Below, one piece after another: positions 1,772 to 26,491 of a stretch of 64,000 bases of DNA. The stretch is taken from the NCBI GenBank assembly GCA_012295275.1, contig CM022679.1, positions 18,042,001-18,106,000 on the forward strand. The letters are read 5' to 3'. Both the position numbers and the translations under genes were made by a program. This stretch comes from Chrysomallon squamiferum. Lineage: Eukaryota; Animalia; Mollusca. The notes below the pieces were generated by a model. That model was not told the DNA's origin and did no database searches. It worked only from the letters and a program-made list of their open reading frames with translations. How positions within the stretch are numbered: the first letter of the stretch is position 1; every line of letters starts with the position of its first letter.

Positions 1772-1814
1772 GGTGCCATCCTGACCACAATGCTGGCAAC
1801 AAGAAATTTTTCAA
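1772..1814 (+). CDS. CaMKII: CaMKII exon: end of calmodulin-binding segment (Thr305/306 equivalents)
   Basis: tttag|GGT...TCA A|gtaagt; [14 protein letters not shown]; 43 nt, ends phase 1. Confidence 0.97.
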
Positions 1815-4800
1815 GTAAGTAAATTTTAAACTGGAATTGTCCATTCCAGTCTTGTTCGTATATCTGTTACAATGTAAAGGTGTGTGAAATTGAATACTTG
1901 CAGAAACTAGGCATTAATTTTTACAATACTTCAAACATTCTTAATAAAAAAAAATATTAGGTTTCCTATTGAAATTTCATTTAATATAATATATTTGTGT
2001 TTTCCATTTTGGAGGTTAACTGTATCCTTAATCTCCGATTTGAATTTCATATAAACCTATCTGACATTTCCTATTTAATTAAAATTATAGCAGTGTCCTC
2101 CTGTTGGAGTGAAATTTGCATGTATAGTAAGTTGAATAAAACGGTAAAACAAGCAAATTTGTTACAGCAGTTGTTTCTAATAACTGTTAATTTATAATTG
2201 TTTCTGAAATTGTTCAGCACAACTGAAATACTACAGTCAAATTTCTTTTCATTATAATGATATGATTAGGACATATAAACCAGGGAAGTAAATTTTTAAT
2301 GGATTTAACTTTTAAGAAAAAAATAATTTTTATTTATTTGTTTTTCAAAATGGTATATGACTTCAGATTTTACTTTTTTTTTTTTTTTTTTTTTTTTTGT
2401 TGTTGTAATGATGTGATAGTTTTAACATTACCTATAATAGTTACATTTGACAAAACTGAACTTCAGTTGCATTTTACCTATTAATGTTAAATTTTATTTT
2501 TAATACTTACCTTATTTGCATCTCTGTTATTTTATTAATAAATCTATTAGTATTTATTTATTTCTTTAAGAAGAATTTTTATTACTAATCTTAAATTACA
2601 AAATATATTTGATTTTTTCACTATTCATATTATATTATTTTTAATTTTTACAGCAGAATTATAAAAATTAATCCCACTGAATTTGTCTTTTGATAAATTA
2701 AGTTTTTGTTGTTGATATTTTTACACTTTGTACAACTCAGATTCACATGTATTTGTCTTTCAAGAACTGACATGAAACCATAGACTCCAACAAAAAGAAA
2801 TGTACAATAATAATAATATCACAATATCATTTCTATAAACAGCTATTTCAGGAGAAAAAAAATATTTATATCATTAATGTAAATACTGTTAGAATTACTT
2901 AAAGCAATATTATGTTAATATAAACAGCTAATTCAGAATAATAATGACTGACATAGTTGGTTACATTATTAAATGTAATTAATGTAAACATGGTATCACA
3001 GTATGAATGCTGTAGAGAGCTGTTTCAAGAAAACTGTAAAAGCCATTGTGTCACAATATCATAACTATAAATATCTACATATGCATAATAAACATAGCCA
3101 CAGTATCATAATACCATTAATAACATTATTTCAAGGTAACAATGGTATCATTGTTATACAGCATTTTTGTATTGCAATATCCTCTGTGTTGATTATAAAC
3201 TGGAATATATTTATAATTATTATTATTATTTTTTTATTATTATTCTTTTCTTGCTGTTTTGTTTAATATTTGAACTGATTAAAAATTTAAGAGAGATAAA
3301 TATTAAGAAATGAACGATATGGTTTTTATTGGCAAAGCATGTGACAGTCATTTTTAATCCTGACTTTCTTCTTTCAGGACTTTCCCACACTAGATAAACA
3401 TAGTACAAAGAGATATATTTATCAGTAGAATAATGAATATAAAAGATGTAACAGTAGTAAATAATATGATAATATCTCATTAGTAGAAACATTAATATGG
3501 AGAATGTCACAGTAGTAGAATCATGAATATGGAGAATGTTACAGTAGTAGAATCATGAATATAGAGATATCTCAATAGCAAAAATCATGAATAAAGATAA
3601 CATCTCAGTAATGGAAACCTGAATGTAGAGAATATCACACTAGCAGAAACATGAATATAGGGAATACCCAATAGTGGAATCATGAATATAGAGAATATTT
3701 CAGTAATAGAAACATGAATATGGAGAATGTCTCAAAAAAGAGACATGACTAGTAGAAAAACAAATACAGAAAACATTAGCTTTAAAAAGAATGATATATG
3801 GGTTTATCATAATTATAGAGGGTTTATCACAGTTGCAGAAACTTGAGTGTAAGACTTCCTTGTTGTTACAGAAACAAAAGCAGGTTAATAAAATGCAGGC
3901 TGCTTATATATAATAATACTTGTAATGTGATTGTTTTTAATGTTTTTAATTGTTTTCATACACAACTGATAATGGAAATGACTTAATCCAGTATTACAAA
4001 TTTTAATGGATAGTACATAGACATTCATTATAGTTACCGGGGGGGGGAGTACAATTTGTAATTGTTTTGTTTGTTTATTTTTTTGTTTGTTTAATATCTC
4101 TTATCAGTGAAAAAAACCACCTTTATAATTTGTGGCTAAATATAAAAATTAATTGTACTAATGATTATATCAGTCATATAATTGAAAGTAATAATACCAG
4201 TTGGTTTAAATTTAAATATTTCTTTTTTATATAGTTAAAAATAATGTTTCTGGGATAATCCATTAATGTTGTGCAGATAGTTGAACATATGCAGATCATC
4301 TGATTGTTGTCCTGTGTAAATTCTTCCATTGTGGAGAATGTCTCCTCACTAATTATCTTCGTATGTACTATATTATTAGACAGCATGATTGGATTTATAA
4401 CTGTCATCTATTGTTTTCTTTTCTGCTGTCTGTCTTTCCTATAGTAAACAAAGGTAAGTTTATCAGTATAAATATCTATGCATAGCCTTTCCTTTTAATA
4501 CATGCATGTTCATAAGCCTACGGACAATGCTTTCTTAGAATTATTGTTAACGTTTTCCCTATTTAGAACTAACTTCTAGCTAATTTTATTCAAGAATTGT
4601 AACTATGTAATATAGAAATGAAATGTAAAGTATAATATAGAAATTAAAAGTTTTAGACTAAAGTTTAGATTAAGTATTTTGAAGGAATGATAATAGTAGC
4701 ATCTGTTAATGCATTGTCTTTGTTTTGTTTGATAATAGTGGACCTGTTTTATAATTATTTGTCCTAACATGTATTCAACTGTCAATGTTTGTTTAATTAA

Positions 4801-10719: not shown

Positions 10720-13700
10720 TTAGCAATATTTTAAAATGTAACCTGTTCTAATAATAAAAATTCTTCATGTAAATTTAGTGGTGTGTAAAAATGGTTACTA
10801 TATCAAGTATATCAGGTATGTTAATAGATATCTCAGGATAGTAAATTCTGTTATGGTGGCTCATAGGTATACAAGTAAGTCTCTCTAAAACACTCTTGTA
10901 AACATCTAATGATTGTATTACATGCTAATAGATATCAGGAATATAAAACAACAAATATAACAATTTTTTTGTTTTAGTTTAAATCTACATAGCTTGAAAA
11001 TCTAAAAGAATTAAATATTTAATGACACAGCTAGGTGTGTATGGATGCCAGATTTTGTTATTAAATAGTGAAATAATTATTTTATTATTAATTTAAATTT
11101 GATAAATATCAACATATTACATCTGAGTGAAAAAAAATGTTCCTTTTACTTGGAAAAAAGTCCTGAAACAAAGTTACTTCTATTGCTGCATTGTATTAAA
11201 CAACTGATATTATCTAAACAGTCTATACATTTTATCTAAAATGTTTATATGTCTAACATATTAATTATTGCCAAAATCTTGTAACTTTGCAACTTTTCAA
11301 TATTTACTCTAATCTAGGTTGAAGTTGTATTTTGTCAGAGACTCATTCTGTTCAGTCTGATATTTCTTAAATGTTATATGTTATCTAAAGCATGCATAAT
11401 AAGAAATAGGTTCCAGCTGCAATGTCATCTAAATACAAATCTAACATCAAAATTAATATCCTTACTGATTTAAAACTTATATATTGTTACCCATCTATTT
11501 TTTCCTACATGTCCATTTTTCTTTAAATATTACCAAACAAATTACTGCAGTATTTCTAGCTTGGCCATTAAGTGCTTATAAAATCTATACATTTTTATAA
11601 GATTTTTTATTAGATTTGTGTTGGTTTCTCTCATTATTATAGACTTCTTTTTGTTTGCCTGTGTGCTCTGTGTCTTGCATTAAATAGTAGCTTGTTCAGT
11701 GTACAGTTTTTGATTTCATATGGTATTAATTTCATAGAATAATTTTTAAATACTGATAATTCATTGTTTTGTAACACATACAACATATATACTTATCAAA
11801 TATACGCACATTATTATACACATATATGCACATACACATAAAAATATACACACATTATTACAAACATACACTCGCACAGACATATATATATACTTATTAA
11901 AGGTACACAGTTTGTAAAATGGTCAGTTTTCCCATGATGTTGTACTTATATTTTTAAACCTTTATTTCCAATTAAAACTGATAGCATTATCTAGCTATTT
12001 TCTTTACTATTTTGTATTTTCCATGAATTCCAAAGCTTAAAAGGTTTTATTTCAATACAGAAATTGTTTTTGTTTTATTTTTTTACAAGAAAATGTCCTT
12101 AATGTTTTGTTGTCCATGAAACTGAATTTCTTGCAGGTAAATTATTTGTGACCGTAAAAAAGTTGTGCTGGCATGTTTCATAATATACATATATATAAAA
12201 ATATTGTCTCACTGTTTACTAAACAAATATTAAACTAACATTCTCTTCACTTTCAAAGGAAAATTTCAATCATTGTTTGTACTTTATTTTACTGAAAAAT
12301 GATCTAAATAACTTTTTGTTTTGAATAAATTGTATTTAATTATTGCTTAAAATTAATCATTCTTCTTAACATGTGTATTTTTTTTTTCACTTATGGTTAA
12401 TATGTCATTTTTGAAATTTTGTGAATTAAACATATTATGCACTAATAAATTTATCAAAATAAACCTAGCAACAACATTTTAGTATTTTTATTATGTTGAA
12501 TTCACTGTAACTCATATTTATATATAGTTTTGTTTAAAATTTCTGTTGATAGTAATTAGTTGATCTGATGTTTTAAATAAAATATAAACTGGTGCAAGTA
12601 GTGTATTTGAAAGCTTCTAACAACATTTTCAGTGTGAATTTTATGCTGAGACCATTTTTTATATATATATATTTCTTTCATTGCAGAAAAAATTTATTCA
12701 GAAAAAAGTAAAGATTCTGTGTATTTTTCATTTTGTGTAAATTAGATCTTGGTTGTAAATTAAAAGCATTGAAATTTTTTTTTTTTTTTTGTTTTACTTT
12801 ATTTAATGCATGATTTATTTGAAAGCCAACAGATTCAAAAAGAAATACGAAATATTTGTTGAATATTAATTAATTTGACACTACAGCTCAAGTTATATAT
12901 TTAGTGTCATTTTTTCTTCTTAATCTTGTCTGAGTATAATAGACATAAAACATTAAAATAAAAATGTTCAGATGTACAAAAACTACAATTAATAAAATGT
13001 TAGTTAAGAAAAAAATGAATTATGTGAAATATTTGTATTGTTTTCCATACCATGATCAATATTTCAAAATAGTTTTATACAAAACTAAAATTACATGGAT
13101 AATTAACGTTAACTGCTGTATCATTATTACCATTAATAAAATTCAGCAGCTTTTTGAAATTTGTAACAATATTTTCAGTTTATGAATGTTAAAACACTTT
13201 ATAACTCTTATCTTAATTTTATATATAAAGTAGACCATAAGATCAATTTTGTGTTACACAATCTGTACCATATTTGTCCTTGATATAATCAGCATTTTTT
13301 TATGGTTGTTCTTGGTAGTTCAGAAAAGCTGGACTGAAATTTGACTGTTTTTAAATAAGAAAATTATTTCTTCTTTAAACAGTTAGTTGTTTGCATTTTT
13401 CAGGCCGCAGTCTAAATGTGAAGAAGAATGATGGAATCAAGGAGTCAACAGACAGCAGTACAATTGAGGATGAAGATACCAAAAGTAAGTGTTTCAAATC
13501 ACCAATATATCATATCATTGAAACCCATCTGACATAATACATTAAGAATGAATAGAAATGAAATACATATATATATAAGATTAATATAGTGGCATTTCTA
13601 CAACTGATTTGACATTTAAATATGCTATATGACATACATTCACCCAAAATAGTTCATATATATTTTATTTTAAATCAGTAATAAATAAAATAATAATAAT

Positions 13701-16700
13701 TATAATTATAATCAAAAAAGAAAGATATCTAATATGAAATAGTATTTAATGTTTTCACAAACACTTAAAATTACAATCATAATCATATAAATTTTAAAAG
13801 AAAAGTGGAAGTTCCTGAAATCTTCCTAGGTATTATTAAAATAATTTGTATTTTTTCTTTATTTCTGTTTCTGACATTTTTCATGATAAATGTAATACAC
13901 ATTTAACAATTAAACTAAGACTTGTATATTTGGCAGTTAAATTTAATAGATAAAGTTAGTATATATATATTATTTTTGAGAACAGTCAACAAAATTAACA
14001 GTTTCCATTTATAACTGCTTGAAATAAATTGATAGTATTTTATTTTATGTTTTATTTTATTTTTTACTTGGGGGAGATCGAGTTGAGAATAAGACAATAA
14101 TTGAAATCAGCATGCAGGGAAAATCTACATATAATTAGACAATTTTCATTTTGTTCATATGTATTTTTTGTAACATAAAGCCAGATATATATTTATTTGT
14201 TATTAGAATAGAAATTATTTAAAGAGCAACAATCATAGAAAATATATTTGACTACTGCAATATGCAAACACAAGTTGATTATCTAGTATGTTAAATACCC
14301 TGTGTAATGCAAGCCAAAGATTTTCACTGAGGTATGTCAGAAAACTAACGTATTTATAAATCAAGCATATCATTATGAACACTATTTTCTTCCAACAAAA
14401 ATAAATAAATATATATATATAAATAAAAATATAAAAATAAATAAATAAAATGTTGCATTGACTGTTACTCTTTAAATTGTTATTTTTGTTTGTTTTGTTT
14501 TATTTTATTTATTTGTTGTTGTTAAACTTGTAAAAGTCATTTTTATTATGGAAATTGTACTGATTTGACATTGTTGAATCATCTAGTGAGAATATAAAAT
14601 CATTTGTTTTTCTTATCTGTGACTGGTTTTCCTTTCTTCCTATTTTCTTCATCACTAGCTGAATCCTTATTGTGTCAGATGTTATTTATGATAAAGATAG
14701 ATGACATAAATTTCTTTTGCATTCATGCAGTTGTTTTGTAAGTTTGTCCTCTGTGCCAGTTTTATAATAATAAATTACAGTAGTAATAAAATCAGCTTGG
14801 AATGTTCAAAGAGGCTGTCATCTTCAGTTGTTTGTTTTTTTTCCCCCGATTTGTTTTATTATTTATTTATTGATTTTTATAACTTGGTATGCTTGTTGAC
14901 TGGGATCCCACAGTCCCAAATCTGAAATTTTAGCCCAATCGGACCAGTGGTGTGGGAGATGAGGCCCACCGAATTTTGAAATTTTTGGCAAAAATGGGCG
15001 TGACCACCAACCTTTGAACCCTCATATCTCAGGAACTACTGGGCCAATCTTCATAAAATTGGTATTGTTGAAAAGGCAAGGATTCCAAATCTGCCATTTT
15101 TGTTCAGTTTGGAAAATAATGGGGTACATTTACCTTTTGACCTTTGCTATGACCTTGAAATTGACCATGTGGATCACGTGACCTTGAGATAACCTTTATT
15201 GAAATTTAATCTCCCACATGTTAACTAAAACATATAAAAGATTCCTGGGTGTAATATTTTTTGTTTAGCCACAATATAGATTTAAAAAATGCACATACAT
15301 GAAAATAACACCTTTTCAGCCATTAACATCTGATTAACTAAAACCTGAATGATCAATTCTGGATGCTAGGAATCACCATCTCTCTTGATCATCGAGTAAG
15401 ACATTGTAGGCCTACATGTATGCATAGAGTTACATAAATTTGAGAGAACTAGGTGTTTCTGATGCTTAACCTTCTCACCATCTGTTTCAAATGCTCACTG
15501 TATCCTTCATTCTTGGACATATTCTACTGTTCTCATCACTTACATAAAATTGGATTATTTCCTCCTTCAATTCATTTGACAGAACTTTCCCTTGTTTCTT
15601 ATCAATTGCTTATTAATTTTCTTGTTTTTAAATCCCTGTTAATCATTATTGTCTAAATCAAACTAAGCCATTGCTTAATTAAATGGATCAGAAATATTGA
15701 AATCTGTTTTTCTTAGATCTTTAAGCTTTAGCAGGAATTATTCTTTCATTATATTTGCTTTTCTTATTACTGTTTGTTTTTAAAAGACATACTCAGTTTT
15801 TATAAGTGATATTTTTTTTTCTTCCAGGATTATTCCTACTCTTGTTAATGTACAGTATTTTATTATTGTTTGTTATTACTGTTTATTTTTATTTCATTCA
15901 AATTGCAACATAATTTTTTAAGGGTTTATAAGAGAATTACTCTGTTGATCTTGGTTAATTGATAGATAATTGTTATTTATTGTTAGAAAGTTGTAGAAAT
16001 ATCTGAGAGAGGGAAGTTGGAGAGTTAAATCTATAGGATAGGTGTGTAATTTTAGCAATAATAATAATACTACTAATAATAATAATAACAGTAATTAACA
16101 ACAACAACAAAACAACAACACTAATAATAACAGCAATAACAATAGCAATAATTATAAAATAAAAAAAAAAAATAAAAAATTTGAAAGATGTACTCATTTA
16201 CATAGTCAGATGCATATAGAAAGAGAAAGAGCAATCGAACAACAGAGATAGTTCATTTATAAAATAAATGTCAGCTTCATCTTCTGAATGATGCTGTACA
16301 AGTTCAGGAACATGTTGGAGGAAAGAGAAATTCAAGAAGTCTGAATCCTACCCAGAGCGTGTGCAAATCTTGACTTTGTGAACCTTCACCATTGAAAGGA
16401 CAATGAATGAATTTAAAACAACGAATTACCTTATGAAAAAAAGCTGTGTGGTGAAGAAAGAGAAAGTGATTCTATCCCTCTGTGATAAGAAACAAGGGAA
16501 AGTTCTGTCAAATGAATTGAAGGAGGAAAGAATCCAATTTTATGTAAGTGATGAGAACAGTAGAATATCTCCAGGAATGAAGGATACAGTGAGCAATTGA
16601 AACAGTGTCTTCCCATTTGGTAGAATTCCCAGTTCGTATAATTCCCATTTCGTAGAAAAAGCTGGTCTACCGCAATACCTGATTACCTCTGTATATAATG

Positions 16701-19700
16701 AACTTGGCCTGTACATACATCTGGTTTCTTTCTAACATTCAGATGCGGAGCACATTGTTCCTAAATCGATTATGTAACATCAACCAAAAGCAGAATAAGC
16801 ATTCACTGCTCATTTGTTACTTTTTCATTATTATCATCATCATCTTCCTCTTCCTCATTATCATCATCATAATTATCATCATCAACATTATTATTATTAT
16901 AATATTATTACTATTATTATTGTTGTTATTATTATTATTATTATTGTTATTATTATTATTCATATTCTTCTTATTCTTATTCTTATTCTTATTATTGTAA
17001 TTACTGTTACTATTATTATTATTATTATTATTTTTTTTTAAACTGGTCATTTCTAATTCATAAACATTTCCTTTCCATTACAAAACAAGCAACCAGTAAT
17101 AAACAATTTTACATCAATTTCATCTATCTATTAAAAAACAAAACGAAAAAAGAATGAAAGAAAAGAAAAATGGCATGCTTCTGTAAGAGAATACGACAAA
17201 AATATTATAAATAACTAATTCAGCAATATAATTTTTAACAAAACATATTTTACATACGAGTAATTTACTTATATTCAGTAAATAGAATATTTGAACGTTA
17301 CATTATCATTAACTTTTTGAATTCAACCATATTCAGCTTAAACATGTACAAGATATCTGTTACTAATCATATTTATGTTATGCACACATACATATTCAGA
17401 TTGTGCACATATTACACAATATATGTGACATAGTATATTAATAGTATGTACACTAAAGATATTATGACCTGCAAATACTTTGGCTATGACTGAAAAAGTT
17501 TATAGGAAGGACCAAATCATTGGGAATACTTTTAGATAAATACCTTCTATTTTAATTATTTACATTCACTATATTCGATACATAGATTATTTTGATAGTT
17601 GTCATATTTGCATACTTTATGCGATAAGCGATATCCATACTACAATAATACCTCAGATTAAAGATGTAATTGGTTCCAAATTTCCGATAGTGAAGTGACG
17701 TATCGTTAAGCGGGAGACTAATTTACACAGAATTAAGGTTAAAAGCAGTGGTTACTTTCTCACTGATGAGATCTGACATAAAAAAAAAAAGGTGAAATAA
17801 GGAGAAATAAAATGGCAGTTTAGACATAAATGATTTAATAGATTGTAGATATTAAATAAACAGTAAATCATTTACAAATCAATTTATACAAATACATTAA
17901 GAAATAAGTATATGCCGCTCATTGTGGGTTTGGTTTCATTTAAGATAATGTATTTTGTTTCTAAAGTTATTGTCTTCTGTTGCTTTTTATCATCAGCATT
18001 TGCCGGTATCGTGTTATTCGTTTTGACATATTGGAAGGGTAAATTACAAACGAGTTTAAGTCTAAATCGAAGCAGAAGACAAAAGAGAATCAGAATATCA
18101 GATGCACGTATGACGTGTCAACTGATCAACACAGCTGACAGAAGCTCGTGAATGAACGAAAAATTAAAGAAAACAGACTTAAAAACATGTATACATTTGT
18201 ATCATTTATTTCGAGCAATTAACTATTAAATTAAATTTCTATTTATATAATTTGTAAAGAAGAAAGATTGTTAAAGCGTGATATCGTTAAGCGAGATATT
18301 ACTGTATTTATACAATAATAATCGCTTTCCAAATAATCTGGAGCAGTTCATTATAATGACTGAGGTAAAACCAAGCATGTCAATAAGACCACTGAACCAC
18401 ATTTAGCCTTTCTACGAAATGGGATTCTACCATATGGGACTAAGCCATTGAACCAGATGGTGAGATTTGGAATCCTTGTCATATTGCCTTTTCAACAATA
18501 CCAATTTTATGAAGATTGGCCCAGTAGTTCCTGATATATGAGGGTTCAAAGGTTGGTGGTCACGCCCATTTTTGCCAAAAATCCAAAAATTTGGTGGGCC
18601 TTATCTCCCACACCACTGGTCCAATTGGGCTAAAATTTCAGATTTGGTGCTGTGGGATCCCAGTCAACAAGTATACCAAGTTTTATAAAAATCTGAGACG
18701 GTAGGGTTTAAATTTCTTTTTTGTGGGGGGGGATTTGACATGGAATGACCCTTTATTATTATTTTTTTGTTTATTTTAATTTTTTTAATTTATTATTATT
18801 GTATTTTTTTTTCTTTTTGGTTTTTTTTTTGTTTTTGTTTGTCAGGAAGCTTTGTATTTTTGTTTGATGTAATTTTCAGACAGCAAGACATCATCTCCAG
18901 CTATATCATTGTTGTACTTTAGTAATAGTAAAGAGTAGTTTTGATATAAACGAATGTATTTAGGTGCTTTGTATATTTTAATTTTATTCTTGGAATAACA
19001 ATTTATTACAAATAAACAAAACTTGCAACAATTCCACTTTTTGAAGGTATTAGAAATTATAATGCAACAAGTTACAAAGTGAAAAAGCCTTTATTACACT
19101 TATGTTTGTAGTCAGATTAGAATATCCTGGGCATATATAATCTATATGGGCAATTCCACAGGGTCAGATATTACATTCAGAGGTCAATCCACTGCTTTGA
19201 TTGCTAGAGGCATATCCTCAAAAACGTGGCCCTGAGTATGAGATGAAAGAGCCCAGGGCTATCTGGCTTGATAGGTAATCAGAAATATGTGTGTGAAGGT
19301 TGTTACTACAAAAGAACATGGGTGAAAACCAACTAACTTCATTTCACAATTGTCTGAAATCTCTAAACTGTATAAATAAATGTTTGCTATTGGAATGAAG
19401 TGAAAGGCTATAGGAGACTACCAGTTTTAATTCAACTTGAAATCAATATATAACAAAAATATTATTATTTAATTGTGCATGAAGTACATTATCGTGACAG
19501 ATGTTACATAATATGAAGTTCGCTGTCATTGCCTTATTTACTGCTGTGATGATAAAATCATTTTATTGCATGATTAAGATGATGACATGGCTTTATATCA
19601 AAGCATGTTTAATCACTATGAACTTTCATTATACTGTATCATTCATTCTACAGTCTTCATTTGAATGGATTCAGGCAACATCCTTTCTGTTTCTTTGCTC

Positions 19701-22633
19701 TTCTGTCTACATGTGCTAATTGTCTTTCATTAATTGTCATTTCAACATAAAATCTGTGATTACTTTATAACACTCTTTTTCTTTAAAAAATAATTTTTCA
19801 GAACAGCATTAAAAATTGAATAAATGCCTTTATTTGTTTGGAAGATGTTCCTTATTTTCTGTAAGTTGGAAGTTTGGACCTTAAGTTTGGACCCTTTGCA
19901 TAATGAAACATCAAAATAATTTATACCCCTTTTGTTCCTTGAGCCATGGAATTGCCCATATAGGTTTGTTTTTCAAATACACTTAATTTAAATGTATATT
20001 CTTCACCAATTTTTAGGGAAATGTGGGTGTTTTTGACATGTTCATGTGTCTGTGTTTTTTTTTTTTTTTTTTTTTTTTTTTTCATATCTGGGGGAATGTA
20101 GAATTCATAGCAATGAAACAGAATGTACTAGTAAAATAATTTTTGAAGTTTTATTGTGACTCATTCAGGTAAGGACTGATGGGTATTGAAATGCTTCATT
20201 CTAAATCAGTTTGCTGGTTATATTTCATTAAATATCACTCTACTTCATGGGAAATTTATTTTTCATACTTTAAAGCAGGAATTCTATATACCATTCAATA
20301 ATCAGTCTTCTTTATCTGTCATTTTCTTTAATAATTATAAATGTAACAGAGATATAGAAATTTCTAAATAGTAAAAAAATAGATAATTTACATTATGTTT
20401 GTATGTGTTTATGTATTTTTGAGAGAGAGAGAGAGAGAGAGTTTAAAGTAAGTTGAGTTGTATTTTACATCATAATAATTATTGACAGAATGTGAAATAA
20501 AAAATATATTTTTGACTGAAAGAAAATCCTGCTTGGTGCTGATGTAGATTTATAAAAAGCTGTTCTCTCTTTTTTTTTTTTTTTTCCTTTTATTTTACCC
20601 CTTTTTCTTCTGTTTTATATTGTTTTGGTAATTTGGTTCTCTATAACATTACATGTTTTCATACTCTCCTTTCCTTTCTTGTGTCCTTCAGGCAAACCAG
20701 AGCTTGAAAGTGAGTATAGTATTATTTGAGTTACCCACCTTTCAATGTTTAGACTACCAAAAACATACAGAATAGTTTTCAAATCACTTATCCAACATTT
20801 AGATTAATGAAAGAAAAATAAACCAAAACCCCCCCAAAACCCCAATGTTTTTTCATAGTTATTACACATTTGACAGTATTGCTAGTTCTTTTCTTTTTTC
20901 TTCTTCTTGTTTATGCTGTATTTCTTTTCTGGGTTGATTTGCATGCTATAAAACGATTTTGTTTTAATGTTTTTGAACCTTTTATTTTGTAGAACAGTAT
21001 TACCCTAATAATATTCTTATTCATTTTTAATTTTATGATTTTATTATAATTATTTTTCATTAAAATTAACTTGTATTTATGTTATATATACAGTGGCATA
21101 TTTTTTATGTTTTTTTTTGTTGTTGTTGTTTTGTTTTTTTGTTTTTGACTTTAATGGAGATCAAGTCTGGTTAGTTTTCATAGGTTCAGGTTGATTCTTT
21201 TCTTTTCTCTCCATTATAGTTTCTCATATGGCTGCAAACAAAGCTTGGAATTAATTTTGATTTATCCATTTAACACATATAATTGTGATCATCGAGTCTT
21301 CAGCAGATAATATGATATATATAATAATTTTATAATCTACACTATAAGTTTAGTTAAATTTTAGTGGTTTCATGCTAACAAAAACAGTATGAAATGCTAA
21401 AATGTGAATTATTAAGAAAGTATGTATGTAAGATTGAAAAGATTTTCATTCTTTGTGCATTTTGAATGATACTTATCATCACAAAAATCATCTTTGCCTC
21501 GTCTTAATTTTAGTAATCATGAAAAATAGTAAGGACGTTTATAAATTAATTGATAATTTTATAAATTCTAAAACATTTGTATTAAATATTTTAACTGTAT
21601 ATTACAACAGATTACAGATATTGGTTTTTTAAATGTAAAAAAAAGGCCATCAGAATAAATTACTCACCCATGCACTTACCATGTAATTTAGTATAAAACT
21701 GAAATAATCATATACTATTTTTCAACTGTGAAAAAATGGATCTTAGTTTCATAAGAAAATTATTTTTGAATTAAATTCTGTATACAACAGCCTTTTCCCG
21801 GACATCAACTGTTACTCAGCGGACAATACAGAGGCAAGAAACATTTGGAAAACATGAGCTGAGTAAGCTGTTTTAATAGCTTTTTATTGTATTGTATTCC
21901 ACCTTGTTGGCAGCCCTCTTCCAGAATAGTACTGTCCTGTATATGTTTTGTGTTGGTATACTGTAGAAATCTCTATGTTGTTGTTCACTGGTGATTTTAA
22001 TTATATAAGTCACTTTAAAGAACACATGTAACTCCTGTCAAAAGTTCCTAGTATAATAAAATGTAAAAAAAATTGTAGTTGATAACTGAATTATTTCCAT
22101 ACTTGTATGTATGTAAACAAAATTAAAGTGGATAGATTTGTTTTTCTGTATTTCACCAATATGTAATGATACATCTGATTTTTCTTACTAACAAACCTAT
22201 AAATAAATTTATTTATAAATGCAGTGTAGAATCAGTAGGGTTATTTATTTATTTATTTATTTTATAGTTTAAGATTTAAAATGTATTCATGATGAATGTA
22301 TAATTGTTTTCTTTTTCAAAATACAGGACATACTGGCTATGATTAAATGAAAAGCAGTCTTTTACTAAAAAAATTATTAAGATTTTCTGGGTTGTTTTTT
22401 TTTACTCAGCAAAACTAGTTACAATGTAAATACATATAGTAACAGATAAATCTTGGCTTTTAAGAATATTTTATTTATTTAATAGTATTGCCAATTTTTA
22501 TATTGTTTTAACTTTATTTTGTTTGTTTTTGCTCTATGGCATGGTGAGATTGGAAATATTTATTATTACTAATAGTGAATATTTATTAATTTAGATTTGA
22601 AATGCAGGAATTTTCTATTTTTAATTTTTAATA

Positions 22634-22669
<36 letters not shown>

Positions 22670-25600
22670 ACTTTTCCTTAATATTTATAGTTCAGAACCA
22701 AATTTCTTCCATTTTTTTCATTTATTATTATTTTAAAATGTATTTTCTTCAAGAACCTAATGACTGCAAGGTTTTATAACAAACTGTTTTAATTCCTTTG
22801 TGCTGTTTTTATTCTTTTTCTTTTTTTTGTGTGTTTTTTAATCTATAAAATGCATAAAGATTTTAAATTGATTCAGATAAAACAAATAGTTGGTATATTT
22901 TAGAGATTGTGAGTGTTGTGTCATAATGAATTTTTTAAAATTATTTAATTACTTAATGAACATAAATATTATTTTCATATTTATATATAAGATATGTTCA
23001 TTTATCCATACAGTAGAGTTTTTTGTTTTATTTGTATCCTCTGGACTTTGAAGTTTTTATCCAAATAACAAATAAAAGTATTTATATTTCACGCCTTAAC
23101 TGTAACTTCAGTAGTAAATGGCCATTAAGAGGTGCCATGAAAGAAAATCCTTAAAACTTTAAGTTATAAAGAATATATTTATGATACAAGTATGTGTATT
23201 TGGTATGACATTTAAATTTTGTTGTAGCCATTTTACAAATCATTCTCTTAATATTTTTCATAATGTTACATGTAGATTTTATAAATGAACACAGAAAAGT
23301 GTATAGATATTTTCACATGAGGTTTTCCTGCTTCCTGCCATTATTTAGTTTCTTAAGTTCAGTAGCCGTAAAGATGAAAATAAACTTAATCAGGAAAATC
23401 AAACAACTGTGGCTGTTAATATGTCTATTGTCCAGAGAATGTTCTTCATAATGTAATACCTAGATTTAAAAATGAACACAGAAAAGTGTATAGATATTTT
23501 CGTATGAGGCGTTCCTGCTTCCTGCCAGTATTTTGTTTCTTAAGTTCAGTAGCCATAAAGATGAAAATAAACTTCATCTGGAAAATCAAACAACTGTGGC
23601 TGTAAAACCATTTTTTTTTTTTTGATGGCTTTTCTTGTGAGTACATTGCTACATAAAAGAATAATATTTAAAAAATAAAAACAACATTATAAGATAAGTA
23701 TTCTGTCTTGAGAGTTTATTAGACTTAATAATATCTACTCAAGAATCCATGGATTTTTAAGACTTTAAACAGATTTTGTAACTGAAAATTCTTCTTCAGT
23801 TATGTCCCTGCAGAATCTGTACCAAACAAAATGGACAATATAAATAAAACAAACTATAAATAGTAGAACAAATATTTTTAATTCTCTGATAGAGCAGATT
23901 TGAATTTTATTTGAGCTTGTTTTATGATAACACTCCAATTACAAAACAAAAATATTTTCAAAAAGTTTGTTTTTATCATTATTAAAATGTAAATTTTAAT
24001 ATAGTTTCTTTGATTGTGATTATATTGCAATGTTTATTTGATAAACTAAACCAATCAGTAATAGGTGAAAATAAACAATTATTTAGGAAAACATGTTTAA
24101 TATTTAAATTTGTTTTTTTAAATTTATTATTTATTTAATTATTTGTTTTATTTGTATGGGATGTTTTTTATATGAAAAATACTTCTCACATTTGAAATTC
24201 TAAAACATTTAGCAGGAAAAAAAAAGAAAACAAATTTGTAACTAAATTTTACTAATGAGTACATTATCAGTTTTAAGAGTGGTTTTTGACCACTCTGCAC
24301 TTTACCTAAATCATTACTAAAAATTCTTTACATTATGATTATAAATATTTATTATTATATTTTTAACCTGTAGTAAATCAAATATATTTAAATTTTTTTA
24401 AATTTTTGTTTTATATATAATTGTTAATGATTTAAATTTCTTAGTGGCTTAGAACTGACTGCTAGGTGAAATTTTTTCTTTTTATTTGATTCATATAATT
24501 AAACAACCTAAGAAAATAATTTCCTTACATTTATTTTAGCTGATCACTTACCAATATAGCCTCTTCTAACTGCATTATACAGGCTGATATTTAAAATACA
24601 CAAAATAATGATTAGAGTATTTGAAAATTGAAAACAATCTTGCTTCCATAATTTTTAGAAAGTAATCTGGCTTCTGATATTTCAGTGCTTGAAAATAAAT
24701 AAATATTCTGTTATTTTCTTTTGTCCTAGAAATGTCTCATATCAGTTCATCCCACCCAAAAAGAAAAGGAAAAAAATAGAATTAAATATCAGATTAAAAT
24801 ATTAAGTCCTTGGAGCATCTTTAGCTAATAAGTCGGTAATCAAAACCATGTTACAAAAAATTCCTCTTAATAACTTCAGGACAATCACCACTTCTCTGCA
24901 TTTCTGTTGTTTTTTTGAGCCTGAAACTAAATAACAATGACTTCAGTTGTTAATTAAAAAATTATTGTTTCAGCCCGAAAACAAGAAATCATCAAACTTA
25001 CAGAACAACTTCTGCAGGCTGTCACCAGTGGTGATTATGAAGCCTATACGTAAGCATTCGAAACAGCTAGAGACTTTTTTCTTTCTTTTTTTTTTCAATA
25101 AATTTGCAACAGCAAATATGATTTGAACTTCACTGCAGTTACAGTAGCAGTATATTTTAAAACAGTCAGACTACATTTTAATCTTTGTGTCATCATTTCA
25201 AAGTTAAATATAAAGTTTGCATGTCAATACAGACAGATTAAAACTGTCAAAAAGAGTTTGTTAGCCATTTATTTAATTATTCATCTACATTGCTGCATAA
25301 ACAGCAACAAGATGTTAACATTTCAAAATAAACTGACAAATAAATAGGACCAGTGCTGATTATAACATTAGTATTTTATTTATTAATTAAGATATTGTTC
25401 TTTTGTCAACAGGAAACTAATAGATCCTCACCTAACAAGTTTTGAACCTGAAGCTTTGGGAAATCTCATTTTAGGCATGGACTTCCATAAATTTTATTTT
25501 GACCATGGTAAGACTTTGTTACAAACAATATTTTCAGTTTCAGTGTTACATACACTGGCATATGCAGTTTACAATCTGTAATCTATTCAAATTAAATAAT

Positions 25601-26491
25601 GCAGCTAAAACTTTACATGCTGTCATTTATCTGCACTTAATACATATTAACTATATAATTTTTACATTTGATCAATAATATTTTCACAAAAATAAAATTT
25701 GATAGATGAACAGAGTTGAGTGTATTCAATATTATGCATTTAAAAGATAGAAATAATAAGCATTTTTGTAGGCTAGATTTGTTTCAGGAATTTTACACAA
25801 TCAAACATTACTTTAACATTTTTGATAAAAAGTAATTGTTTTCTTCAGCATATTAACTGATATCTTATCAGATTCAGCTTTAACACTGTTTCAATTTAAT
25901 TTTCAGTCTTGTCAAAAAACAACAAACCAGTGAACACAAGCATTCTGAACCCTCATGTTCATTTACTGGGTGATGATGCAGCCTGCATTGCTTATATTCG
26001 GTTAACACAGTGTATAGATAGGTAAGAATGTATCTTCTTTTTTAACTGTACCATATTTTTTTCAGATTTCCTTAGGTTGTTGTTTCAAGAAATTCATCTC
26101 ATATTTATCTTGAATGTATTAAAGCAAAACATAATTTTGTAATTATAAGCTAGTAAAACAAGTTATTTATTCCATCAGTCTGAAATATTTCTTCTTCTTT
26201 TTTTTTGTATTTAGATGATAACATATTGGCATTTTAACTATAATGCTGTTAAAATAAAATTTATATTTTTCTGTTTTAAAGATTGTAATACTATTACTGT
26301 TATTCTTCTTCTTTGTATCCTGTGTATCTGTAACTTCAAGACTGTAATTCTACTGTTAATCCTGTTTCAGAAATGGCCTTCCTATAACAGTGCAGTCAGA
26401 AGAAACACGGGTGTGGCAACGTAAAGATGGCAAATGGCAGAATGTTCATTTTCACCGGTCAGGCAGTGCATCTGCTCCACATGGAAAATAG
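1772..26491 (+). CDS. CaMKII: Calcium/calmodulin-dependent protein kinase II, 3' part (5' exons lie upstream of the window)
   Basis: Core exons 1772-1814, 13404-13484, 24974-25049, 25413-25507, 25907-26021, 26371-26491 splice in frame with GT-AG ends: [14 protein letters not shown] / [26 protein letters not shown] / [14 protein letters not shown]...FEPEALGNL...[21 protein letters not shown]...[24 protein letters not shown]...GK*. Confidence 0.98.
2563..2672 (+). repeat. ~110-bp dispersed repeat, copy 1 (copy 2 at about 6577-6700)
   Basis: tctttaagaagaattttttatta...tttttacag.agaattataaaaat occurs at both places with small indels. Confidence 0.75.
3420..3760. repeat. Degenerate minisatellite, unit 31-32 bp, roughly ten copies
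   Basis: Recurring CAGTAGTAGAATCATGAATATRGAGAATRT; units start at 3511, 3543, 3574. Confidence 0.85.
4445..4453 (+). CDS. CaMKII: Candidate 9-nt CaMKII linker microexon (I-N-K)
   Basis: Long pyrimidine tract ...ttctgctgtctgtctttcctatag|TAAACAAAG|gtaagt; phase 1-1, no stop; TGCATG at 4503. Confidence 0.7.
5150..6000 (+). mobile_element. Highly degraded Ty3/Gypsy pol fragment (RT to RNase H junction)
   Basis: + strand frame with an internal stop: [17 protein letters not shown]...[36 protein letters not shown] resembles Gypsy APLxxLLKKxxxWxW...LxxxDPNKxxxLxVDAS; judged by eye. Confidence 0.4.
8253..8286. repeat. (CA)n microsatellite
   Basis: Direct reading; about 75 nt upstream of the 45-nt candidate exon. 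Confidence 0.95.
8363..8407 (+). CDS. CaMKII: Candidate 45-nt CaMKII linker cassette exon ([15 protein letters not shown])
   Basis: ataaccag|GTAATGTG...CCCACAG|gtatgt; 45 nt, open in phase 1, GC-richer than its flanks. Confidence 0.6.
12687..12707 (+). CDS. CaMKII: Possible 21-nt CaMKII microexon (xKIYSEK)
   Basis: tttctttcattgcag|AAAAAATTTATTCAGAAAAAA|gtaaag; frame-preserving, weaker donor; TGCATG at 12807. Confidence 0.3.
13404..13484 (+). CDS. CaMKII: CaMKII conserved linker exon
   Basis: tttcag|GC CGC...ACC AAA A|gtaagt; [26 protein letters not shown] resembles the vertebrate KKxDGVKES...TIEDED linker; 81 nt. Confidence 0.95.
16825..17035. repeat. Compound (ATC)/(ATT)/(TTC) trinucleotide microsatellite
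   Basis: Direct reading; explains the low-complexity ORFs at 16698-17050. Confidence 0.95.
17643..18304. mobile_element. Tc1/mariner (pogo/Tigger-like) MITE nested in the MULE-like element
   Basis: TA|CAATAATACCTCAGATTAAAGAT ... ATCGTTAAGCGAGATATTACTG|TA; degenerate TIRs, TA flanks, internal repeat of TATCGTTAAGCG at 17701. Confidence 0.55.
19148..19957. mobile_element. 810-bp MITE with 4-bp TSD (Sola-type)
   Basis: ATAT|GGGCAATTCCA ... TGGAATTGCCC|ATAT; perfect 11-bp TIR and ATAT duplication. Confidence 0.8.
20692..20709 (+). CDS. CaMKII: Candidate 18-nt CaMKII linker microexon (SKPELE)
   Basis: ctcctttcctttcttgtgtccttcag|GCAAACCAGAGCTTGAAA|gtgagt; strong splice sites, phase 1-1. Confidence 0.8.
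21791..21862 (+). CDS. CaMKII: Candidate 72-nt CaMKII linker cassette exon ([24 protein letters not shown])
   Basis: caacag|CCTTTTCCCGG...GAGCTGA|gtaagc; 72 nt, open in phase 1, coding-like composition with two CGG codons. Confidence 0.75.
   Translation, partial: PFPGHQLLLSGQYRGKKHLENMS
23259..23604. repeat. Two-copy direct duplication, period about 188 bp
   Basis: cataatgt...aatgaacacagaaaagtgtatagatatttt...caaacaactgtggctgt occurs twice. Confidence 0.9.
24974..25049 (+). CDS. CaMKII: CaMKII hub exon 1
   Basis: [26 protein letters not shown]; tttcag| ... |gtaagc. Confidence 0.97.
25413..25507 (+). CDS. CaMKII: CaMKII hub exon 2
   Basis: [31 protein letters not shown]; caacag| ... |gtaaga. 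Confidence 0.97.
25907..26021 (+). CDS. CaMKII: CaMKII hub exon 3
   Basis: [39 protein letters not shown]; tttcag| ... |gtaaga. Confidence 0.97.
26371..26491 (+). CDS. CaMKII: CaMKII terminal coding exon
   Basis: [39 protein letters not shown]; TAG at 26489-26491. Confidence 0.96.

What the first reader, a model, noticed from the sequence alone, without database searches (positions are those of the whole stretch)
21791..21862. CaMKII cassette exon encoding a second RQET (Thr286-like) site plus another consensus site
Seen: a 72-nt AG/GT-bounded, phase-1, stop-free segment between the EDEDTK exon and the hub, translating to [24 protein letters not shown]. Established: CaMKII prefers hydrophobic(-5)-x-R(-3)-x-x-S/T-hydrophobic(+1), and its autonomy switch is MHRQET286V. 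FSRTSTV and IQRQETF both fit that pattern, and the second repeats RQET exactly. Inference: including this exon tethers an extra substrate or pseudo-regulatory segment next to the hub. It could compete with the true regulatory segment, keep the kinase open in the way GluN2B binding does, or add autophosphorylation states, giving a splice-controlled second switch. I do not recall such an insert in vertebrate or Drosophila linkers.
Basis: partly seen in the sequence, partly recalled or inferred. Interest (0 to 1): 0.85.

Follow-up and report, generated by a model that had tools for sequence, protein, structure and literature searches.

The report
Snail CaMKII exon carries own substrate
A small optional exon in the calcium-sensing kinase CaMKII of two related snails adds a 24-residue piece that is predicted to fit the enzyme's own active site, so it likely acts as a built-in substrate that tunes the enzyme rather than as a second on-switch.

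Summary
The exon is real. 21791-21862 is an AG/GT-bounded, 72-nt, phase-1/1 segment. Gigantopelta aegis, a different species, carries the identical 24 residues in 4 of 7 RefSeq isoforms and skips them in 3. One RNA contig shows the donor spliced to the hub exon; the upstream junction was not seen. The second RQET occurs in 4 of 356 readable CaMKII linkers, all G. aegis, so it looks lineage-restricted. A complex model puts its Thr at the catalytic Asp and its Ile in the -5 pocket (score 0.82, best control 0.02; may be recall of solved peptide complexes). Only RQET matches the true regulatory segment: the docking helix and calmodulin-binding element are absent, and the -8 basic residue of GluN2B-type activators is missing. 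Best reading: a tethered autophosphorylation substrate in a splice-variable linker, not a second autonomy switch. A built-in GluN2B-like activator stays possible (about 15%). No phosphorylation or activity data exist here.

The parts
21791..21862 (+). 72-nt cassette exon, phase 1/1, 24 aa ([24 protein letters not shown]), net charge +2
   Evidence: identical in G. aegis isoforms X1, X2, X4, X5; donor joined to 24974 in an RNA contig
21826..21846 (+). site 2, IQRQETF: Ile -5, Arg -3, Gln -2, Thr 0 (T369 in G. aegis X4), Phe +1; Arg at -7, Gln at -8
   Evidence: predicted in the active site
21793..21813 (+). site 1, FSRTSTV: Phe -5, Arg -3, Thr 0 (T358), Val +1; no Gln at -2
   Evidence: not among the confidently placed residues of the model
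1772..1814 (+). CaMKII exon [14 protein letters not shown] (end of calmodulin-binding element); kinase and T286 exons lie upstream of the window
   Evidence: 14 of 14 identical to G. aegis
4445..4453 (+). 9-nt optional microexon (INK)
   Evidence: matches the SINKG versus SS forms of G. aegis and other molluscs
13404..13484 (+). 81-nt linker exon ending EDEDTK, present in all 7 G. aegis isoforms
20692..20709 (+). 18-nt optional microexon (KPELE); precedes the finding's exon in 4 of 4 G. aegis isoforms that include it
24974..25049 (+). first hub exon (RKQEIIK...)
   Evidence: its first 29 letters are the loose end of the RNA contig
25413..25507 (+). second hub exon
25907..26021 (+). third hub exon
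26371..26491 (+). last coding exon with stop

Best explanation
This is an optional CaMKII linker exon whose 24 residues likely act as a substrate tethered beside the hub: once calcium/calmodulin opens a kinase domain, the RQET threonine is predicted to enter the active site and would be autophosphorylated. Shown: the exon, its frame, its identity in a second species, its optional use there, and its downstream splice junction here. Predicted: docking of IQRQETF in the substrate groove. Inferred: at a tethered concentration of about 1-3 mM the site would briefly compete with outside substrates and with neighbours' T286 segments; phosphorylation of T369 (and perhaps T358) would turn the insert from net +2 to neutral or negative and weaken its binding; together with 24 extra residues of linker this would tune calcium sensitivity and the timing of autophosphorylation in the isoforms that include it. 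It would not itself release autoinhibition.
For: Exon real and optional. 0 of 23 substitutions against G. aegis versus 5 of 177 in the other coding exons in the window, so it is as constrained as the rest of the protein. Motif beyond chance. Model: score 0.82, best of 3 controls 0.02; runs share at least 54% of contacts; partner pLDDT at least 48; the mark was reached by 51 of 78 solved complexes and 2 of 108 mismatches (microbes), 39 of 65 solved eukaryote pairs without a like complex and 2 of 126 unrelated; T369 touches D136, G176, T177; Q367 touches K138, E140, G179, Y180; I364 touches F99, I102, V103, I206, the same pockets described for solved partners (bioRxiv 10.1101/2020.10.25.354241). 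That paper expects partners lacking 1-2 consensus positions to be weaker, substrate-like binders. Linker Ser/Thr of CaMKII-alpha exon 18 are autophosphorylated in vitro and linker charge and position set calmodulin sensitivity (PMC12474881). Gaussian-chain estimate 0.65-9 mM, about 1-3 mM at 3 nm for 70-96 residues.
Against: No phosphorylation, binding or activity data. The model's pass may come from memory of solved CaMKII-peptide complexes; peptides and disordered chains are untested for that tool, and the partner's fold is uncertain. In PMC12474881 phosphorylation of the linker did not explain the sensitivity difference, and charge mattered most next to the regulatory segment, whereas this exon is next to the hub. 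+2 is Gly, where Asp/Glu is favoured. Zero substitutions in 23 is also what the gene-wide rate gives about half the time, and does not single out RQET; other lineage-specific linker exons without the motif are conserved too (18-19 of 21 among scallop genera). The junction into 21791 was not seen in 4 RNA runs of one study. The motif is absent from all other molluscs examined.
Confidence: 0.55

Rival explanations
1. Built-in activator: the tethered segment stays in the substrate groove after calcium falls, holds helix D rotated out and kinetically blocks re-binding of the regulatory segment, as GluN2B, Tiam1 and fly Eag do in trans, giving T286-independent persistence in exon-containing isoforms.
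For: +1 hydrophobic, -2 Gln, -3 Arg and -5 hydrophobic are present; model places them in the known pockets, with residues 362-364 among the contacts and W215 in the interface; densin-180 uses an Arg at -7 against that Trp. Tethering at mM concentration could offset weak affinity: occupancy 0.67-0.97 for Kd 0.1-0.5 mM with no competitor.
Against: -8 is Gln, and E237 is not among the confident contacts; loss of that salt bridge cost solved partners 17- to 35-fold or all binding, and Syntide-2, which lacks it, showed no ITC binding. All five solved partners have Leu at -5, here Ile. The true regulatory segment is tethered closer and was not modelled as competitor.
Confidence: 0.15
2. Ordinary spacer: the exon matters through length (+24 aa) and charge (+2) only, and RQET is incidental or any phosphorylation is without effect.
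For: Every mollusc lineage examined fills this slot with its own unrelated exons. Linker length alone shifts the autophosphorylation balance (bioRxiv 10.1101/848044 abstract); linker phosphorylation did not explain sensitivity in CaMKII-alpha.
Against: Two full consensus sites in 24 residues: 0.02% of shuffles; full identity in a second species.
Confidence: 0.2
3. In the window's species the exon is rarely spliced in on its 5' side: it is mostly the end of a retained intron or of an alternative first exon, so little protein carries it.
For: The one RNA contig with the spliced donor runs 407 nt into the upstream intron at depth 13.2, against 2.6-5.2 for nearby single-copy intron contigs, and accounts for all depth in that bin. 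The acceptor has a pyrimidine-poor tract, 9 of 17.
Against: The upstream frame has a stop at 21772 and no Met, so no alternative N-terminus; unspliced intron contigs are spread over the stretch, as expected of pre-mRNA; contigs drop rare variants; the constitutive hub acceptor is also 9 of 17; the peptide is fully conserved and annotated as an internal cassette in G. aegis.
Confidence: 0.07
4. Second autoinhibitory segment or true second T286 switch, derived by duplication of the regulatory exon.
For: RQET is identical, and vertebrate regulatory segments also have STV upstream (local alignment shuffle p 0.01-0.04, driven by RQET).
Against: 0 of 11 upstream and 1 of 15 downstream identities to the snail's own segment; Gly at +2, His and Thr where Leu and Phe dock; hub begins 8 residues later. 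Molluscan segments have ERV, not STV. The regulatory exon is outside the window, so DNA-level duplication was not tested.
Confidence: 0.03

Closest known systems
Alternatively spliced variable-linker exons of CaMKII (human exons 13-21; primate-specific CAMK2B isoforms, PMC9772828; PMC12474881)
   Same: Frame-keeping optional exon between regulatory segment and hub; lineage-specific; Ser/Thr-rich; such exons are autophosphorylated in vitro and change calmodulin sensitivity, kinetics and substrate spectrum.
   Different: Carries a near-complete CaMKII substrate consensus with RQET; 0 of 352 other readable linkers held RQ[ED][ST], although RQ-x-S/T without the hydrophobic flanks occurs 13 times in 199 distinct linkers.
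CaMKII-beta linker autophosphorylation sites that gate F-actin binding (passage in PMC6341221)
   Same: Linker phosphosites, added by splicing, that the kinase writes on itself.
   Different: No partner is known for this exon; no sequence likeness to beta linker exons was found (fish beta slot exons, shuffle p 0.29-0.80).
GluN2B, Tiam1, fly Eag (activators) and densin-180, CaMKIIN (inhibitors) binding the substrate groove (bioRxiv 10.1101/2020.10.25.354241)
   Same: +1 hydrophobic, -2 Gln, -3 Arg, -5 hydrophobic; predicted to use the same pockets.
   Different: In cis, part of the kinase itself; lacks the -8 basic residue; Ile instead of Leu at -5; affinity and activation unknown.
CaMKII regulatory segment (T286) and the synthetic substrate autocamtide-2 (KKALRRQETVDAL, as printed in bioRxiv 10.1101/2021.10.11.463945)
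   Same: RQET core with hydrophobic -5 and +1.
   Different: No docking helix, no calmodulin-binding element, not adjacent to the kinase domain; closer in kind to a tethered autocamtide than to a regulatory segment.

Membership tests
CaMKII variable-linker cassette exon | lies between regulatory segment and hub of a CaMKII gene | tested here: met
CaMKII variable-linker cassette exon | symmetric phase, length a multiple of 3, canonical splice sites | tested here: met
   72 nt, phase 1/1, CAG and GTAAGC
CaMKII variable-linker cassette exon | both included and skipped forms exist | tested here: met
   G. aegis RefSeq models: 4 include, 3 skip, of 7; the evidence behind those models was not seen
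CaMKII variable-linker cassette exon | both junctions spliced in the window's own species | tested here: inconclusive
   donor joined to hub exon in 1 of 4 runs; acceptor junction not listed; contigs only
CaMKII regulatory segment (T286 autonomy switch) | phi-x-R-Q-E-T-phi core | tested here: met
CaMKII regulatory segment (T286 autonomy switch) | following helix that docks on the kinase (V-D-C-L-K-K-F-N-A-R-R in this snail) | tested here: not met
   0 of 11 identities at +1..+11; Gly at +2
CaMKII regulatory segment (T286 autonomy switch) | overlapping calmodulin-binding element | tested here: not met
   hub helix starts 8 residues after the Thr
GluN2B/Tiam1/Eag-type CaMKII activators | +1 hydrophobic, -2 Gln, -3 Arg/Lys | tested here: met
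   Phe, Gln, Arg; features
GluN2B/Tiam1/Eag-type CaMKII activators | Leu at -5 in the F98/I101/V102/I205 pocket | tested here: inconclusive
   Ile, not Leu; modelled in the equivalent pocket
GluN2B/Tiam1/Eag-type CaMKII activators | Arg/Lys at -8 pairing with E236 | tested here: not met
   Gln at -8, Arg at -7; E237 not among confident contacts
GluN2B/Tiam1/Eag-type CaMKII activators | sub- to low-micromolar binding and persistent activity after calcium removal | not testable with these tools
   needs ITC and autonomy assays

The most novel reading that the evidence does not exclude
These snails have spliced a GluN2B-like activator into CaMKII itself: isoforms with the exon keep activity after calcium falls without T286 phosphorylation or a receptor partner, because twelve tethered RQET segments at mM concentration outcompete re-binding of the regulatory segment. 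That would be a splice-selected, self-contained molecular memory and a natural test of the kinetic-competition model.
Probability: 0.15. Interest if true: 0.8.

Novelty: new variant of a known kind. Interest (0 to 1): 0.45.

Why it matters
How linker sequence, not only length, tunes CaMKII is an active question, and so is how groove-binding partners keep the kinase on. A natural isoform pair that differs by one tethered, near-consensus substrate gives a clean bench test of both: with versus without the exon, T369A/D, and Q361R to add the missing -8 residue. If it is only a phosphorylatable spacer it is one more lineage-specific linker exon in an obscure snail group; the restriction to close relatives of G. 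aegis limits its general reach.

Tried and rejected
No whole genome is held for this window, so the regulatory exon could not be compared at DNA level. Region search on the exon with short flanks: 2 candidates, none at E<=10; weak, because exon-bearing isoforms can hide as cluster members, as they did in G. aegis. phmmer of the 33-aa open frame over 1.84 billion representatives: 0 hits at E<=0.001. PDB sequences: 0 of 177,635 at E<=10. Degenerate DNA pattern in metagenome contigs: 0 matches. Deeper homology to other molluscan slot exons: best of 55 non-self comparisons were an oyster exon (shuffle p 0.0035) and the Pomacea exon (KRRSFGQH against RQETFGKH, p 0.007-0.015); Octopus p 0.11-0.15; bivalve profile p 0.024; all chosen after looking and not significant after allowing for the number tried, and none keeps RQET: inconclusive. 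Hydrophobic-moment comparison of the residues after each Thr was uninformative (0.25 versus 0.18). Three of four RNA runs had no spliced contig on the exon (X2 one unspliced contig over the donor, X3 and X4 no cover); absence in contigs is no evidence. An alpha-KAP-like alternative start before the exon was rejected: in-frame stop at 21772, no Met. No TGCATG (Rbfox) element within 21600-22100. Search for CaMKII-beta Thr382 papers gave nothing relevant among 12 listed of 44.

Full report
Observation. The window holds the 3' half of a CaMKII gene on the + strand: exons at 1772-1814, 4445-4453, 13404-13484, 20692-20709, 21791-21862 and four hub exons from 24974 to 26491. The finding's segment is 72 nt, stop-free, bounded by CAG and GTAAGC, phase 1 on both sides, 44% GC against about 27% around it. 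It is 1 of 15 AG..GTRAG phase-1 candidates between 1815 and 24973 and has the highest GC of them. No whole genome is held.

Which animal. The last exon's best hits are Gigantopelta aegis (95%), then Haliotis (90%) and Patella (88%) (120 of 1050 hits listed). The window differs from G. aegis at 5 of 200 compared residues, all in the hub, so it is a second, closely related gastropod species (inference). I did not establish which. For scale only: PMC7736800 (passages read) dates the split of G. aegis from Chrysomallon squamiferum, a fellow peltospirid, at about 66 million years.

It is a real, optional exon. Of 7 G. aegis RefSeq isoforms, X1, X2, X4 and X5 carry the same 24 residues, 24 of 24 identical, always after the KPELE microexon; X3, X6 and X7 skip them. 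I did not see the evidence behind those models. In the window's species, 1 of 4 RNA runs (one study, contigs only) has a 508-nt contig that matches 21384-21862 and then continues with the first 29 letters of the hub exon: the donor is spliced as predicted. Against this, the same contig runs unspliced through the acceptor, no joint into 21791 is listed, and this contig explains all the depth of that bin (10.5). Unspliced intron contigs lie across the stretch, so partly spliced pre-mRNA is the simplest reading; the upstream frame has a stop at 21772 and no Met. The lay covered 20600-24100 only, so skip junctions are untested.

How widespread. Of 393 proteins held had a readable linker; 4 hold RQ[ED][ST] there, all G. 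aegis. The set is redundant (many isoforms per species) and incomplete (120 of 1050 and 120 of 169 hits listed; 15 of 46, 15 of 22, 15 of 27 and 15 of 16 members for four clusters), covers gastropods, bivalves, cephalopods, a chiton, Lineus, Lingula and some vertebrates, and has no annelid or insect that I could identify. Each molluscan lineage fills this slot with its own exons. Likenesses to oyster and Pomacea exons are suggestive but not significant after selection. Direct searches with the exon found nothing else, which is weak evidence for so short a query.

Is the motif chance? Shuffling the exon's own letters gives RQET in 0.9%, phi-x-R-Q-x-S/T-phi in 0.5% and two full consensus sites in 0.02% of 200,000; background linker composition gives 1.3e-4 per 24-aa exon. 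These are post hoc. RQET is also close to the preferred substrate motif, so convergence on a substrate site explains it without duplication: Gln -2, Arg -3 and hydrophobic +1 and -5 are the general preferences (bioRxiv 10.1101/2020.10.25.354241; parts 1-4 of 7 of the text read; its alignment figure and supplements not seen). The exon shows 0 of 23 substitutions against 5 of 177 elsewhere: constrained like the rest, but not demonstrably more.

Not a second regulatory segment. In register on the Thr, the exon and the snail's own T287 segment share only RQET: 0 of 11 upstream, 1 of 15 downstream; +2 is Gly, +4 His, +7 Thr, and the hub begins 8 residues on. T286 gives autonomy because its phosphate undocks the inhibitory helix (established knowledge, recalled; the Introduction states the outcome); a copy without that helix cannot do so.

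Docking as a substrate. Folding G. aegis kinase 5-272 with residues 347-378 gave score 0.82 against a best control of 0.02; runs agree in at least 54% of contacts; partner pLDDT at least 48; the mark was reached by 51 of 78 solved complexes and 2 of 108 mismatches, and in eukaryotes by 39 of 65 and 2 of 126; peptides are untested for this tool. Confident contacts cover only 362-372: T369 at D136/G176/T177, Q367 at K138/E140/G179/Y180, I364 at F99/I102/V103/I206. These are the pockets of the solved GluN2B, densin and Tiam1 complexes, so the pass may be recall; it shows likeness, and that site 2 rather than site 1 is chosen. The paper's high-affinity consensus adds a basic residue at -8 pairing with E236; the exon has Gln there and Arg at -7, and E237 is not among the confident contacts. 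The paper expects weaker, substrate-like binding when 1-2 positions are missing. A Gaussian-chain estimate puts the tethered concentration near 1-3 mM (range 0.65-9 mM over the settings tried), enough to occupy an open kinase even at Kd 0.1-0.5 mM when nothing competes; this keeps the activator reading alive at low odds.

Mechanism, committed. Included exon: linker 62 residues against 32 in the isoform lacking it and the KPELE microexon. After activation the RQET site is likely phosphorylated in cis or by a neighbour, competing briefly with other substrates, and the insert's charge falls from +2. Precedent: all Ser/Thr of CaMKII-alpha exon 18 are autophosphorylated in vitro and linker charge position sets calmodulin sensitivity, though phosphorylation did not explain that difference (PMC12474881; abstract, Introduction and first third of Results read); linker length flips the autophosphorylation balance (bioRxiv 10.1101/848044, abstract only; PMC10642921, passages); beta-linker phosphomimetics abolish actin binding (PMC6341221, passages); species-specific CAMK2B isoforms differ in kinetics and substrates (PMC9772828, passages).

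In print? I found no description of this exon: CaMKII with Chrysomallon or Gigantopelta (0 CaMKII mentions in the 15 listed of 45); CaMKII + mollusc + variable region + splicing + isoforms (0 papers); CaMKII + snail + splice variants + association domain (2 cancer reviews); CaMKII + RQET (25 of 42 seen as listings only, none by title or abstract start on a linker copy); listings likewise. The library lacks most subscription journals. The peptide itself is already in RefSeq, unremarked. The scan's own notes had nothing near this place and nothing on this exon.

Verdict. Observation confirmed; interpretation partly supported. New variant of a known kind: a lineage-restricted linker exon with an unusually good self-substrate site. 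Interest 0.45; built-in activator 15% likely, 0.8 if true.

Noticed in passing
window 20560-20709: A longer AG..GT form of the KPELE microexon keeps frame and reads very hydrophobic (best 19-residue hydropathy 2.8). It is 60% T, contains a T run, lacks a pyrimidine tract before its AG, and shuffles are open in 42% and as hydrophobic in 4%; 0 of 7 G. aegis isoforms use it. Its last 9 residues match 8 of 9 of the extended form that Haliotis isoforms use, so this intron flank is conserved. Probably a translated polypyrimidine tract.
   Followed up: partly
bivalve proteins P0097, P0026, P0289, P0072: Joining the K-x-[ED]-x-D microexon to the next optional exon creates a full phi-x-R-x-x-T-phi site (IDRSITL, MDRGITL, IDRAITL, LDRAITL) that is absent when the microexon is skipped: a splice-made CaMKII site in the same slot.
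   Followed up: partly
Pomacea protein P0017, linker: Its slot exon has KRRSFGQH followed by two degenerate S-F-G-x-H repeats, resembling RQETFGKH; homology unproven.
   Followed up: partly
window 4445-4453: 9-nt INK microexon shared with G. aegis, Haliotis, Pomacea, Octopus, scallop and oyster isoforms.
   Followed up: partly
window 14874-15079 and 18484-18689; 15482-15604 and 16483-16605: Two inverted repeat pairs (206 nt, 94%; 123 nt, 97%) in the intron upstream of the optional exons, likely mobile-element copies.
   Followed up: no
G. aegis proteins P0002, P0122-P0125: Five of 7 isoform models carry a 25-residue duplicated stretch in the catalytic loop region (two tandem PENL...KLADF blocks), which looks like a mutually exclusive exon pair or a model error; outside the window.
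   Followed up: no
Liolophura protein P0225: A 30-residue hydrophobic insert splits the calmodulin-binding element between RRKLK and GAIL.
   Followed up: no
window 23250-23603 and 3463-3734: Intronic tandem repeats: 187-nt unit x1.9 and 32-nt unit x8.6.
   Followed up: no
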